Positions 6,001 to 9,000 of a stretch of 39,647 bases of DNA are shown piece by piece. A program made the position numbers. Position 1 is the stretch's first letter, and every line of letters starts with the position of its first letter. The stretch is taken from the IMG/VR virus record IMGVR_UViG_2718218399_000002. One strand, given 5' to 3'. The DNA is from a virus. Lineage: Duplodnaviria; Heunggongvirae; Uroviricota; Caudoviricetes.

Positions 6001-9000
6001 TGAATTAACCAAAGAATGGCTACAGAACACGATTACCGGAATTGAGTCATCACGGGATGAAATACCGTTCGGACTCGATGAAGATCAAAACAACATGCTT
6101 ACCGCATTAAAAATTGCACTGGCATCACTGGCATCAGTATCGGATGAACGGGCAGCCTATGAATTATTTATGGAGAAGCGTTTCGGGGAATCTGTAGATC
6201 GCCGCAGAGCAAAAAATGGCGATAGAGAATACATGGCATGGGATATGGCGCTTGGCTGGATTATCTGGTGTCACCGCGCCGCCATGCTTCAGGCTGGAAA
6301 CTTTCGGGAAAATAAGGGTTCGTCAACCAATAATTTTCGGATAATCTCGGAAACGTCAACCAACTCTCCGGCAATCCCTGATGAGGTGTTGTCCGCAATC
6401 CTGAAGGTCGCCAGGCTTCGTGCAGATTTCGATGCTTCTGAAGTGGACAGGCGAGGTATCGGTAGTTGTCTGGATGAGGCCGAGCAAGAACTTATCGTTA
6501 CCATTAACGAATACGCCAGTCAGATCGCAGTAGAAGCGACACAGGGGGAGAACCAATGAGCCGGCCAGATGCATTTGCAGGCGTTGCTATAGCTATTGCT
6601 TTTCTAGTATATGTTATTTGTCGGTGGGGGTAAAAACGTTCGCCGGGATTCACACCAAGGGAGGGAATATGTCGGATGATATTTCACTGGTAATGGAAGG
6701 CGCTCTGGCTGTTATTGCTGTTGTGGGTGTTTACTGCCTGGTTGTGTTTTTGATGGAGCGCCTGGGGAACTGAATTCATTCCGTATGGGAATTCCCATAT
6801 CGGGCAAAACGGTTTGCTGTAAAGCGAGAGTTAAGTAGAATTGCTGCGGGTGCTTGAGGCTGTCTGCCTCGGGCATGCCACCGTAAGGCAGACAGAGAAA
6901 AGCCCCAGTTAACATTACGCGTCCTGCAAGACGCTTAACATTAATCTGAGGCCCAATCTATGCTTCACAAACGTAGGTTAGCCTCTTACGCGCCGAAAGG
7001 CAAGGAGAAGCAGGTTATGAAGCAGCAAAAGGCGATGTTAATCGCCCTGATCGTCATCTGTTTAACCGTCATAGTGACGGCACTGGTAACGAGGAAAGAC
7101 CTCTGCGAGGTACGAATCCGAACCGGCCAGACGGAGGTCGCTGTCTTCACAGCTTACGAACCTGAGGAGTAAGAGACCAGGCGGGGGAGAAATCCCTCGC
7201 CACCGCTGATGTGTCAGGCATCCTCAACGCACCCGCACTTAACCCGCTTCGGCGGGTTTTGTTTTTTCTGGTCGTTCTGGTTTACAATCCATCCGTCAGC
7301 CTGAACAACTGGCACCTGCTGCGCCAGCAGAGAAAACAGATGGCGCACGATACCAAATTTTACAATTCGGATAACTCTGCCGCCCCTGCCAGCAGGCACG
7401 GGCGGCGTTCTCATGCATTCAAATCTGACTGGTATCAGCACGACCCCTGCACCGAAGAACAGGCTGAATGGCTGATTCAGTGTTACCGCAGGCGCGGATA
7501 CGAGGTTAAGAAAGCCCTCAGTCTCGATTATCGTCACTGGATAATCTCCGTCAGGCTTCCTTACTCCGAACGCCCACCGCGTCCGTCCCGCACATTCCAG
7601 CAACGCATCTGGAGGTAACGTGCGGGTATTACTTCGACCTGTTCTGGTACCGGAACTCGGGCTGGTGATCGTTAAGCCGGGCCGTGAATCCATGCCGGTA
7701 TTCCACAATACCCGGGTACTGGTGGAGCCGGAACCGAAAAGCATGCGTAATCTGCCGTCCGGGGTCGTTCCTGCCGTTCGCCAGCCGCTGGCGGAGGATA
7801 AATCATTACTGCCATTTTTCAGCGACGAACGAGTGATTCGTGCTGCTGGTGGCGCTGGCGCACTGTCTGACTGGTTACTGCGCCATGTTAAATCCTGCCA
7901 GTGGCCACACGGCGATTATCACCACAGTGAAACCGTCATTCACCGTTATGGTACCGGCGCAATGGTGTTGTGCTGGCACTGCGACAACCAGTTGCGTGAC
8001 CAGACCTCCGAATCACTTGAGCAACTTGCTCACCAAAACCTGTCAGCATGGATGATTGACGTCATTCGTCACGCAATGAATGGCACACAGGAGCGTGAAT
8101 TATCGCTGGCTGAATTATCCTGGTGGGCGGCCTGCAATCAGGTGGTGGATGCACTACCTGAGGCAGTAGCGCGTCGTTCGCTGGGATTACCAGCGGAAAA
8201 AATCCGCTCCGTATACCGTGAGAGTGACATCGTACCGGGAGAACAGACAGCCATCAGCATACTGAAGCAGCGCACAAAAAATATTGCGCTGCCACTTCAC
8301 GTCCACCAGCAACAAAATCCACCACAGAAAAAAACGGTTGTCAGTATCGCCGTTGATCCGGAGTCTCCTGAATCGTTCATGAGGCGGCCTAAACGTTGCC
8401 GCTGGGTTAATGAGAAATACACGCGCTGGGTAAAGACACAGCCGTGTGCGTGTTGTGGTAAGCCTGCTGACGATCCGCATCACCTGATTGGTCATGGTCA
8501 GGGGGGAATGGGGACAAAGGCCCACGATATTTTCACGCTACCGTTGTGCCGGGAGCACCACAACGAACTTCATGCAGACCCGCTGGAGTTTGAGAAAAAG
8601 TACGGCTCTCAGATTGAGTTAATTTTTCGTTTTCTTGATCACGCCTTTGCGACTGGCGTGCTCGGGTAAAAGAGGTGACTGATGCTCATAGATTTGGTTT
8701 TACCTTACCCGCCGACGGTGAACACCTACTGGCGACGTCGTGGCAGCACATATTTTGTATCAAAAGCCGGTGAGCGTTATCGCCGGGCTGTGGCGCTTAT
8801 TGTTCGCCAGCAGCGGCTGAAATTAAGCCTGTCCGGAAGGCTGGCGATAAAGATTATTGCCGAGCCACCGGATAAGCGCCGCCGTGACCTGGACAATATT
8901 CTGAAAGCGCCGCTGGATGCGCTGACGCATGCGGGGTTGCTAATGGACGATGAGCAGTTTGATGAAATCAATATTGTGCGCGGTCAGCTCGTTCCTGGTG

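What the first reader, a model, noticed from the sequence alone, without database searches (positions are those of the whole stretch)
6880..7267. Hok-family type I toxin locus with an in-frame leader and its own terminator inside the early region
A 51-aa Hok/Gef-type toxin with an in-frame upstream ATG (6960) and a strong terminator is embedded among early genes. Hok loci normally carry an antisense sok RNA over the leader; its promoter should lie on the minus strand around 6880-7020, but I could not place it confidently.
Basis: partly seen in the sequence, partly recalled or inferred. Interest (0 to 1): 0.5.

Follow-up and report, generated by a model that had tools for sequence, protein, structure and literature searches.

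The report
Intact prophage hok/mok/sok toxin-antitoxin locus
This is an ordinary, complete copy of the well-known hok/sok "host-killing" toxin–antisense-RNA module, sitting in the early region of an E. coli O157:H7 lambda-like prophage and already annotated in hundreds of genomes.

Summary
Window 7017-7172 (+) encodes a 51-aa Hok/Gef toxin (Pfam PF01848, 82.9 bits). It is 100% identical to E. coli K-12 HokD/RelF and 92% identical to HokW of phage 933W/Sp5. The in-frame ATG at 6960 is the mok leader. The terminator is at 7241-7267.

The locus starts further upstream than reported: hok promoter 6814-6841, mRNA 5' end about 6848. Its promoter is TTGCCT-17 bp-TAACCT (7003->6975), and the homologous -10 was mutated experimentally in hokW-sokW.

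Every hok mRNA control element described for plasmid R1 is present. These are the tac/fbi end-pairing (conserved with compensatory changes across 36 loci), ucb, dcb, the 5' metastable hairpin and the 3' protective hairpin.

The surrounding 1.1 kb is 100% identical in many O157:H7 chromosomes, where the gene is annotated hokD. K-12's Qin prophage holds a 5'-truncated copy at the same position. Novelty: already known; interest is low. Physiological role (induction-coupled lysis helper, prophage addiction or phage exclusion) is inferred, not shown.

The parts
6814..6841 (+). hok/mok mRNA promoter: -35 TTGCTG (6814-6819), 16-bp spacer, -10 TAGAAT (6836-6841)
   Evidence: Read from the sequence. 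A TAnnnT hexamer sits at the same distance upstream of the conserved GGG(T/C)GCTTG start in the related loci (alignment). The simple consensus scan did not report it. Assignment is inferred, not mapped.
6848..7267 (+). full-length hok mRNA (about 420 nt), from GGGUGCUUGAGG to the terminator U-run
   Evidence: The Rfam RF01794 model starts at 6848. MFE is -174.9 kcal/mol, z = -6.48, with 0 of 100 shuffles as stable.
6848..6859 (+). tac (translational activator element), 5' end of the mRNA
   Evidence: Pairs with fbi in both the MFE and the centroid of the full-length fold. Switches to ucb when the 3' end is cut to 372 nt or less. The 12-bp tac/fbi duplex is kept in 16/16 distinct combinations with compensatory changes.
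6866..6876 (+). partner of tac in the metastable hairpin of the nascent transcript
   Evidence: The first 32 nt fold into an 11-bp hairpin of -20.7 kcal/mol. This matches the metastable structure described for R1 (PMC9841398).
6900..6906 (+). ucb / anti-SD of mok (AAGCCCC)
   Evidence: Pairs with the mok SD in the full-length fold and with tac in truncated folds. GCCC is invariant and the following C nearly invariant in the 36 aligned loci.
6898..6968 (-). Sok antisense RNA (about 71 nt; start at 6968, 3' end near 6898 in a U-rich tract)
   Evidence: The sokW misc_RNA of 933W was transferred through a gap-free alignment (offset 4339); 66/71 nt are identical. It folds as a 14-nt free 5' tail plus a long hairpin, -29.2 kcal/mol, z = -5.2.
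6975..7003 (-). Sok promoter: -35 TTGCCT (7003->6998), 17-bp spacer, -10 TAACCT (6980->6975)
   Evidence: Both hexamers are identical to 933W. The homologous -10 was mutated to make sokW promoter-less (primer YO-421, PMC8621323). The spacer is 17 bp in 36/36 related loci. The generic sigma-70 scan does not report it because the -10 matches only 3/6.
6948..6951 (+). Shine-Dalgarno of mok (GAGG)
   Evidence: GAGG lies 8-12 nt upstream of the mok ATG in all 35 related loci that keep that ATG; the 36th, L032, keeps the GAGG but not the ATG. It is sequestered by ucb in the full-length fold and paired with dcb in the truncated folds.
6960..7172 (+). mok leader reading frame (70 codons, here in frame with hok)
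   Evidence: ORF list. The same arrangement is annotated as mokW in 933W. The frame relative to hok varies among homologs.
6982..6985 (+). dcb (CCUC within the conserved GCCUCUUAC)
   Evidence: Pairs with the mok SD in most folds truncated to 372 nt or less. GCCTCTT is invariant in 36 loci.
7002..7007 (+). Shine-Dalgarno of hok (AAGGAG)
   Evidence: Read from the sequence. This is where homology to the truncated K-12 hokD locus begins.
7017..7172 (+). hok toxin gene (51 aa; HokD allele)
   Evidence: Pfam PF01848 82.9 bits. PHROG 251 'MokW-like host killing' 114.7 bits. 51/51 identical to K-12 HokD and 47/51 to HokW.
7180..7201 (+). 3' UTR hairpin GGCGGGGGA-GAAA-UCCCUCGCC, the likely 3' protective stem of the processed mRNA
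   Evidence: Predicted in all folds. It is conserved with some compensatory changes. The role is inferred from the R1 study (PMC9841398).
7222..7234 (+). fbi (fold-back inhibitory element) CCUCAACGCACCC
   Evidence: Pairs with tac over 12 bp with one bulge, -19.8 kcal/mol. Only 1 of 2000 shuffled fbi sequences pairs as well. Covariation at U4-A/C4-G and G12-C/A12-U.
7241..7267 (+). intrinsic terminator AACCCGC-TTCG-GCGGGTT plus T-run
   Evidence: Terminator scan. It is shared with K-12 Qin hokD and phage Evi but not with 933W.

Best explanation
This is a complete hok/mok/sok type I toxin-antitoxin module of the HokD/HokW subgroup. It is carried in the nin-like early region of a lambdoid prophage of E. 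coli O157:H7.

Proposed mechanism, inferred from the R1 and hokW systems:
1. A weak promoter (6814-6841) makes a roughly 420-nt hok mRNA.
2. While the transcript is nascent, a 5' metastable hairpin holds tac.
3. In the full-length RNA the 5' tac pairs with the 3' fbi, and the mok ribosome-binding site is buried by ucb. The RNA is then neither translated nor bound by Sok.
4. Slow 3' trimming removes the terminator and fbi.
5. tac then flips onto ucb, the mok SD moves to dcb, and the mok start region becomes accessible.
6. The short, unstable Sok RNA (6968->6898, minus strand, own promoter 7003->6975) pairs through its free 5' tail with the mok start region. This blocks mok translation, and therefore the coupled hok translation, and marks the duplex for RNase III.
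7. When Sok is depleted, the 51-aa Hok inserts into the inner membrane and kills or arrests the cell. Depletion could follow loss of the element, transcription shut-off or prophage induction.

Shown here: presence, positions, conservation and predicted folding of every element. Taken from the literature: toxicity, Sok action, RNase III/Hfq dependence and induction-coupled expression, for HokD, hokW-sokW and R1.
For: Toxin:
- Pfam HOK_GEF 82.9 bits and PHROG 251.
- 100% identical to HokD and 92% to HokW.
- HokD is reported toxic on expression (bioRxiv 10.1101/2025.08.07.668861).

Leader:
- Rfam RF01794 114.9 bits against a gathering score of 59.

DNA identity:
- 92-97% identical to phage loci annotated mokW/hokW/sokW.
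- 100% identical to O157:H7 chromosomes annotated hokD.

Sok:
- Coordinates transferred from the 933W annotation.
- Promoter hexamers identical to those of 933W; the homologous -10 was tested by mutation in hokW-sokW.
- Fold shows a free 5' tail plus hairpin.

mRNA switch:
- tac/fbi pairing in the MFE and centroid.
- Refolding to tac/ucb and SDmok/dcb on 3' truncation, and the metastable 5' hairpin. This is the scheme described for R1 (PMC9841398).

Covariation:
- 16/16 tac/fbi combinations pair.
- RNAalifold keeps the end-pairing with UA:23 / CG:11 at one pair, and 16 of 64 pairs show compensatory changes.

mok:
- The start codon is conserved in 35/36 loci, each with a GAGG upstream.
Against: - Nothing here measures RNA or toxicity for this exact locus; transcript ends are inferred.
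- The generic sigma-70 scan reports neither promoter.
- The Rfam 'sok' hit is on the sense strand, so it supports the hok leader and not Sok itself.
- NCBIfam Hok models score below their curated cut-offs (48.5 vs 73; 40.2 vs 89).
- Chromosomal hokA, hokB and hokC loci are reported not to give post-segregational killing, so an intact sequence does not guarantee an active system.
- MFE folding of a 375-nt truncation still shows an alternative 5'-3' pairing. The switch therefore depends on where processing stops.
Confidence: 0.93

Rival explanations
1. The locus is structurally intact but physiologically silent. It would be a selfish or decaying passenger, like several chromosomal hok loci, that neither stabilises the prophage nor affects lysis.
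For: Chromosomal hokA, hokB and hokC loci were reported not to mediate post-segregational killing or to respond to rifampicin (summarised in bioRxiv 10.1101/2025.08.07.668861). E. coli genomes carry many copies: median 2, up to 12 matching places per genome. Several copies are visibly damaged. K-12 hokD has lost everything upstream of the hok SD, L007 has a degenerate tac, and L045 and L049 are frameshifted.
Against: Every regulatory element is intact and under visible structural constraint. The close homolog hokW-sokW is active and changes lysis timing and phage yield. The sequence is conserved at 100% across many O157 genomes.
Confidence: 0.2
2. Its main role is as an induction-coupled lysis helper, as shown for hokW-sokW in Sp5. 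After SOS induction Sok disappears, Hok accumulates in the inner membrane before holin/endolysin act, and phage release is accelerated.
For: In Sp5, mitomycin C removes sokW RNA. HokW then appears in a RecA-dependent manner about 1 h before endolysin, and deleting the locus halves released phage (PMC8621323). The window locus is 92% identical, with identical Sok promoter hexamers. It lies in a prophage with a LexA-family repressor, Q, holin and lysozyme genes.
Against: The window locus sits in a different part of the phage genome (nin region, sense to early-right transcription) than hokW in 933W (right-arm accessory region). It also has a different 3' terminator. Whether this prophage is inducible is unknown. 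The effect in Sp5 was only two-fold.
Confidence: 0.4
3. Its main role is prophage addiction (post-segregational killing after excision or loss) or exclusion of superinfecting phages by abortive infection, the classical roles assigned to plasmid hok/sok.
For: These are established functions of the family on plasmids. They are listed in the introductions of both Hok papers, which also report enrichment of hok in prophages: 23% observed against 5% expected. The 933W annotation calls mokW/hokW 'prophage maintenance'.
Against: No direct test exists for prophage copies. Deleting hokW-sokW gave no growth phenotype without induction. The survey found no enrichment of hok next to defence systems.
Confidence: 0.3
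4. The ORF and hairpins are chance features of a non-coding spacer.
For: None beyond the small size of the ORF.
Against: Pfam E = 1.2e-23. Rfam E = 1.3e-25. Fold z-scores are -6.5 and -5.2. The locus is conserved across Escherichia, Kluyvera, Photorhabdus and Pantoea with compensatory changes.
Confidence: 0.01

Closest known systems
hokD (relF) of the E. coli K-12 Qin cryptic prophage
   Same: The toxin is 51/51 identical. The CDS, 3' UTR hairpin, fbi and terminator are nearly identical in DNA. The genomic position is the same, upstream of a small ORF, ydfU (DUF968) and the Q-like antiterminator.
   Different: In K-12, homology starts only at the hok Shine-Dalgarno. The promoter, tac, ucb, mok start and the whole sok gene are replaced by relBE, and rem is inserted downstream. 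The window carries the complete, unbroken version.
hokW-mokW-sokW of Stx2 phages 933W / Sakai Sp5 (experimentally characterised; PMC8621323)
   Same: About 92% DNA identity from the mRNA 5' end to fbi, without indels. 47/51 aa are identical. The 57-nt in-frame mok is the same, as are the Sok promoter hexamers. Sok is 66/71 identical.
   Different: The position differs: accessory region at the right end of 933W against the nin-like early region here. Homology to 933W stops right after fbi, so the terminator differs. Three of the five Sok differences fall in the 14-nt 5' recognition tail. The C-terminal four toxin residues also differ.
hok/sok (parB) of plasmid R1 and R1-type IncFII plasmids
   Same: The architecture and control logic are the same: tac, metastable hairpin, ucb, mok SD, dcb, Sok promoter inside the mok 5' part (R1-type TTGCGC-17-TATCCT at the equivalent place), fbi and terminal hairpin. 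Compare the L058 sequence. The mechanism is described in PMC9841398.
   Different: HokW, which differs from this toxin at 4 of 51 residues, is 44% identical to R1 Hok (PMC8621323). The replicon differs (plasmid versus prophage). Sok and its target have diverged, and this subgroup carries an extra roughly 20-nt hairpin insert. Post-segregational killing is proven only for the plasmid systems.
Rfam RF01794 'sok antitoxin (CssrC)'
   Same: Full-length match 1-157 at 114.9 bits, above the gathering score of 59.
   Different: The match is on the hok-sense strand. It runs from the mRNA 5' end (tac) to the hok AUG, and the opposite strand scores only 14.8 bits. The model therefore describes the hok leader that contains the Sok target, not the Sok transcript.

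Membership tests
hok/sok (Hok/Gef) type I toxin-antitoxin | Toxin of about 50 aa matching the Hok/Gef family profile above its curated threshold | tested here: met
   PF01848 82.9 bits against a cut-off of 22, covering profile positions 1-42 of 42. PHROG 251 114.7 bits.
hok/sok (Hok/Gef) type I toxin-antitoxin | Upstream overlapping mok reading frame with its own GAGG Shine-Dalgarno | tested here: met
   ATG 6960 with GAGG at 6948-6951. The ATG is conserved in 35/36 related loci, each with a GAGG upstream; the frame relative to hok is not conserved.
hok/sok (Hok/Gef) type I toxin-antitoxin | cis-encoded antisense Sok RNA covering the mok translation start, with its promoter inside the mok 5' region | tested here: met
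   At sequence level only. The annotated sokW maps to 6968->6898. The promoter is TTGCCT-17-TAACCT, with hexamers identical to 933W and a 17-bp spacer in 36/36 loci. The fold shows a 14-nt free 5' tail plus hairpin. Transcription itself is not testable here.
hok/sok (Hok/Gef) type I toxin-antitoxin | Long-range 5'-3' pairing (tac/fbi) that closes the full-length mRNA | tested here: met
   Present in the MFE and centroid. The duplex is -19.8 kcal/mol against a shuffled mean of -9.6 (1/2000 as good). It is kept in 16/16 distinct tac/fbi combinations with compensatory changes and is in the RNAalifold consensus.
hok/sok (Hok/Gef) type I toxin-antitoxin | Refolding after 3' processing: tac/ucb and mok-SD/dcb stems; metastable 5' hairpin in the nascent RNA | tested here: met
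   Predicted by thermodynamic folding of 3'-truncated and nascent RNAs. This matches the R1 scheme. It is a prediction only; the processing site is not known.
hok/sok (Hok/Gef) type I toxin-antitoxin | Leader matches the curated covariance model RF01794 above gathering score | tested here: met
   114.9 bits against 59 at 6848-7022 on the + strand.
hok/sok (Hok/Gef) type I toxin-antitoxin | Toxin kills or arrests cells on expression, and Sok neutralises it | not testable with these tools
   Literature only. The identical HokD peptide is listed as toxic. HokW/sokW were shown to be toxin and antitoxin.
NCBIfam Hok models (NF007279 Hok family subfamily; NF007290 HokA equivalog) | Score at or above the curated cut-off | tested here: not met
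   48.5 against 73 and 40.2 against 89. The peptide is not HokA and falls below the subfamily cut-off. RefSeq nevertheless names the identical protein HokD (WP_000813254.1).
HokD (RelF) allele | Amino-acid identity with K-12 HokD | tested here: met
   51/51 identical.
hokW-sokW of Sp5/933W | Same locus (orthologous position and full-length homology, including the 3' end) | tested here: not met
   92% identical from tac to fbi, but the genomic position is different and the sequence after fbi is unrelated. It is a close paralog/allele, not the same locus.

The most novel reading that the evidence does not exclude
The module lies inside the early-right (pR-type) operon and is sense to it. Antiterminated read-through after induction would run head-on into the Sok promoter and would also make 5'-extended hok RNAs. 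Hok synthesis in this prophage would then be coupled to induction by transcriptional interference with sok, rather than only by Sok decay. This would be a position-dependent wiring that differs from hokW in Sp5 and from plasmid hok/sok.
Probability: 0.12. Interest if true: 0.4.

Novelty: already known. Interest (0 to 1): 0.08.

Why it matters
It matters little for discovery. The family is a textbook type I toxin-antitoxin system. A 92%-identical phage copy (hokW-sokW) has been characterised experimentally. This exact sequence is annotated as hokD in hundreds of O157:H7 genomes.

Its modest value is practical:
- It gives a fully annotated, intact reference for the HokD subgroup: promoters, tac, ucb, dcb, fbi, Sok, terminator. 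The K-12 type copy is truncated.
- It shows that gene callers annotate only the toxin CDS, leaving mok and sok unmarked.
- It shows that the Rfam 'sok' hit reports the sense strand.

Tried and rejected
- The generic sigma-70 scan found neither the hok nor the Sok promoter. I relied instead on homology to the mutated sokW -10 and on conservation.
- I first took the Rfam 'sok' hit as locating the antisense gene. The strand and model ends show it is the sense leader.
- I first used 7018 and 6670 as start coordinates; the translations failed and the coordinates were corrected.
- I recalled R1 mok as being out of frame with hok. In the R1-type IncFII copy I fetched, the upstream ATG is in frame, so I make no claim about R1 itself. 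One search shows the frame varies among homologs.
- The MAFFT alignment misplaces the fbi of Photorhabdus-type loci by one column, so I scored tac/fbi per sequence with duplex folding instead.
- A truncation at 375 nt still gave an alternative end-pairing. Shorter truncations gave the expected switch.
- The sub-threshold isrK and rsmX matches in the 3' UTR were not taken as identifications.
- I looked for a second hok copy in the window and found none.
- The large protein searches, structure prediction and fold search were not used because they were not needed.
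Full report
**Observation**

- The ORF list gives a 70-codon frame at 6960..7172 on the plus strand.
- Its internal ATG at 7017 opens the 51-aa peptide MKQQKAMLIALIVICLTVIVTALVTRKDLCEVRIRTGQTEVAVFTAYEPEE.
- The two starts are 57 nt apart, so they are in frame.
- A hairpin AACCCGC-TTCG-GCGGGTT followed by TTGTTTTTT at 7241-7267 is the only terminator-like site the scan finds in 6600-7500.
- My first coordinate guesses (7018, 6670) were off by one and failed translation. The corrected coordinates are used throughout.

**Identity of the toxin**
- The 51-aa peptide scores 82.9 bits against Pfam HOK_GEF (cut-off 22), covering the whole profile.
- It scores 114.7 bits against PHROG 251, 'MokW-like host killing'.
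- It is 51/51 identical to HokD (RelF) of E. coli K-12 and 47/51 identical to HokW of phage 933W.
- NCBIfam's Hok models score below their curated cut-offs, so it is neither HokA nor a member of that subfamily model. RefSeq nevertheless names the identical protein 'type I toxin-antitoxin system toxin HokD'.
- There is only one hok copy in the window.

**Where the window comes from**
- Positions 6600-7700 are 100% identical to many E. coli O157:H7 chromosomes.
- Related sequence is found in 4775 of 5426 complete E. coli genomes, with a median of 2 and up to 12 places per genome.
- In one such genome the neighbourhood, in order, is: LexA-family repressor, Cro/CI regulator, YdaT-family protein, DnaT-like/O-type and P replication genes, several small ORFs, hokD, a 92-aa ORF, a DUF968 protein, RusA, antiterminator Q, three tRNAs, then lysis genes.
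- The window's tRNAs at 9938-10184 are collinear with that genome.
- 'Inside the early region' is therefore correct. The locus sits in the nin-like segment between replication and Q, on the strand of early-right transcription.
- Phages Evi, mEp460_ev081, HannyBb, Tritos and others hold 94-95% identical loci, annotated MokW, 'host killer protein' or HokD. In phage Evi the locus lies at the equivalent position between the replication genes and Q.
- In K-12 the Qin cryptic prophage has hokD at the same place, upstream of ydfU (DUF968) and the Q-like ydfT.

**The antisense gene**

In 933W the depositors annotated mokW, hokW and a 71-nt sokW antisense RNA.
- The window aligns to 933W without any gap from the mRNA 5' end to just past fbi, with an offset of 4339.
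- sokW therefore maps to window 6968->6898 on the minus strand, and 66 of 71 nt are identical.
- Upstream on the minus strand lie TTGCCT (7003->6998), a 17-bp spacer and TAACCT (6980->6975). The start follows six bases further on.
- Both hexamers are identical in 933W.
- Takada et al. made sokW promoter-less by mutating exactly this -10 element. Primer YO-421 replaces TAGGTTAG by CCGGCTCG on the hok strand. This unmasked HokW toxicity, which sokW supplied in trans partly reversed (PMC8621323).
- Across 36 related loci the -35 is TTGCCT or TTGACC, the -10 is mostly TAACCT or TAATCT, and the spacer is 17 bp in all 36.
- The predicted RNA has a 14-nt unpaired 5' tail complementary to the mok start codon region, a long interrupted hairpin and a U-rich end. 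It folds at -29.2 kcal/mol with z = -5.2.
- The generic promoter scan does not report this promoter because the -10 matches the consensus at only 3 of 6 positions.

**The covariance-model check**

Rfam RF01794 ('sok antitoxin') matches at 114.9 bits (gathering 59) over 6848-7022. However:
- The match is on the plus strand.
- The model consensus begins GGGUGCUUGA and ends at the hok AUG.
- The minus strand reaches only 14.8 bits, at shifted coordinates.

The hit is therefore good evidence for a canonical hok mRNA leader that contains the Sok target. It does not by itself give the strand or ends of Sok.

**The mRNA control elements**

The R1 mechanism is summarised in PMC9841398:
- tac/fbi end-pairing closes the full-length RNA.
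- The mok SD is sequestered by ucb.
- 3' processing triggers tac/ucb and SD/dcb stems, which allow mok translation and Sok binding.
- A metastable 5' hairpin prevents co-transcriptional translation.

All of this is reproduced by plain thermodynamic folding of the window sequence.
- The 420-nt RNA 6848-7267 folds at -174.9 kcal/mol (z = -6.48). Nucleotides 1-12 (tac, 6848-6859) pair with 375-387 (fbi, 7222-7234) in both the MFE and the centroid.
- In that fold the mok SD GAGG (6948-6951) pairs with GCCCC (6902-6906).
- When the 3' end is cut back to 372 nt or less, tac switches to nucleotides 53-59 (ucb). In most truncations the mok SD then pairs with CCUC at 6982-6985 (dcb).
- The first 32 nt alone form an 11-bp hairpin of -20.7 kcal/mol.
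- A cut at 375 nt still allows an alternative end-pairing. The switch therefore depends on the real processing site, which is unknown.
- A conserved 9-bp hairpin at 7180-7201 is the likely 3' protective stem of the processed form, by analogy with R1.

**Comparative support**

A scan of representative genomes returned 53 hok loci from Escherichia, Shigella, Kluyvera, Pseudocitrobacter, Citrobacter, Photorhabdus, Pantoea and Erwinia. Thirty-five distinct loci with recognisable ends, plus 933W, were aligned.
- Scored per sequence, the 12-bp tac/fbi duplex forms in all 16 distinct tac/fbi combinations (-17 to -24 kcal/mol).
- The compensatory pairs are U4-A to C4-G, G12-C to A12-U and G11-C to A11-U.
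- For the window, only 1 of 2000 shuffled fbi sequences pairs as well.
- RNAalifold independently keeps the end-pairing (column 4/405: UA 23, CG 11). It finds compensatory changes in 16 of 64 consensus pairs.
- The mok ATG is present in 35 of the 36 loci, each with a GAGG upstream, but its spacing to the hok ATG is 57, 58 or 56 nt. This agrees with the view that translation of mok matters, rather than the Mok product.

**Comparison with the closest relatives**
- K-12 hokD: the CDS, 3' UTR, fbi and terminator are shared. Homology begins only at the hok SD. Everything upstream (promoter, tac, ucb, mok start, sok) is replaced by relBE, and rem is inserted downstream. The window is therefore the intact form of the locus whose K-12 copy is a remnant.
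- hokW-sokW: 31 substitutions in 387 nt and no indels. Three of the five Sok differences fall in the 5' recognition tail. Homology ends after fbi, so the terminator differs. hokW also lies in a different part of the phage genome.
- R1-type plasmid copy: the order of elements is the same, with a Sok promoter TTGCGC-17-TATCCT at the equivalent place.

**Function**

What is shown here is the anatomy. The mechanism is inferred from the family.
- For the 92%-identical hokW-sokW, the literature shows toxin and antitoxin activity with partial dependence on RNase III and Hfq.
- It also shows loss of sokW RNA after mitomycin C and RecA-dependent HokW accumulation in the inner membrane about an hour before endolysin.
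- Released phage was halved when the locus was deleted.
[quoted passage not shown] It also recalls that chromosomal hokA, hokB and hokC loci did not give post-segregational killing.
- I therefore rate the identification and molecular mechanism as very likely (0.93). I treat the physiological role as open between induction-coupled lysis helper (about 0.4), addiction or phage exclusion (about 0.3) and silent passenger (about 0.2).

**Novelty**

None of substance. The family, this subgroup, this allele and its prophage location are all described or annotated. The only unexcluded new angle is that the position inside the early-right operon, sense to it and head-on to the Sok promoter, could couple Hok expression to induction through transcriptional interference. 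Nothing here tests that.

Noticed in passing
window 6848-7022 (+): The Rfam family named 'sok antitoxin' (RF01794) matches the hok-sense strand from the mRNA 5' end to the hok AUG, while the antisense strand scores only 14.8 bits. Automated annotation from this model would put 'sok' on the wrong strand and with the wrong ends.
   Followed up: partly
window 7155-7160 (and 7111-7116): UACGAA, the tRNA-Arg anticodon-loop-like motif used by TadA, sits in the loop of a small hairpin (CAG-CUUACGAAC-CUG). Its stem covaries in 36 loci (CG:21/UA:14 and GC:22/AU:12). The A is the middle base of the Tyr47 codon, so editing would recode Tyr to Cys. A recent preprint says hokD mRNA is edited in this way.
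   Followed up: partly
window 7181-7262 (+): The hok 3' UTR (protective hairpin, fbi, terminator) gives a sub-threshold match to the Salmonella prophage sRNA IsrK (RF01394: 27.2 bits against gathering 50, E = 2e-4). The two-hairpin layout is the same. It could be chance or a distant relationship between IsrK and hok 3' ends.
   Followed up: no
window 6669-6773 (+): A 34-aa ORF (MSDDISLVMEGALAVIAVVGVYCLVVFLMERLGN) with a strong GGGAGG ribosome-binding site and a hydrophobic helix lies just upstream of the hok promoter. RefSeq annotates it as hypothetical. It has no Pfam, NCBIfam or PHROG match.
   Followed up: partly
window 7340-7618 (+): A 92-aa ORF between hok and the DUF968 gene matches PHROG 1212 (unknown function). 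It is conserved in K-12 Qin, where RefSeq leaves it unannotated and where rem is inserted between hokD and it.
   Followed up: partly
loci L007, L008, L029, L045, L049: Several genomic hokD-type copies are visibly damaged. L007 has an intact toxin but a degenerate tac. L008 and L029 have relBE-type replacement of the 5' half. L045 and L049 are frameshifted or scrambled. Kluyvera sp. (L029) shares the K-12-type relBE junction.
   Followed up: no
one search hit H2; loci L019, L024, L057: Near-identical E. coli-type hokD sequence appears in records labelled Actinobacillus phage vB_Apl-pPE4 (96.7%), Acinetobacter idrijaensis (275-bp contig), Xanthomonas pisi (431-bp contig) and a 'Candidatus Scatousia' MAG. 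These look like contamination or mislabelled hosts rather than true distribution.
   Followed up: no
window 14012-14128 (-), 9938-10184 (+), 10958-11130 (+): Other RNA features in the window: an ALIL pseudoknot (the frameshift signal of an IS3-family element, so an IS copy is inserted in the prophage), three tRNA genes downstream of Q, and the prophage sRNA STnc100.
   Followed up: no
window 6955-6968 versus 933W: Three of the five differences between this Sok and sokW lie in the 14-nt single-stranded 5' tail that should start target recognition. O157 genomes carry up to 12 related places, so co-resident hok/sok copies may be insulated from each other by these few changes.
   Followed up: no
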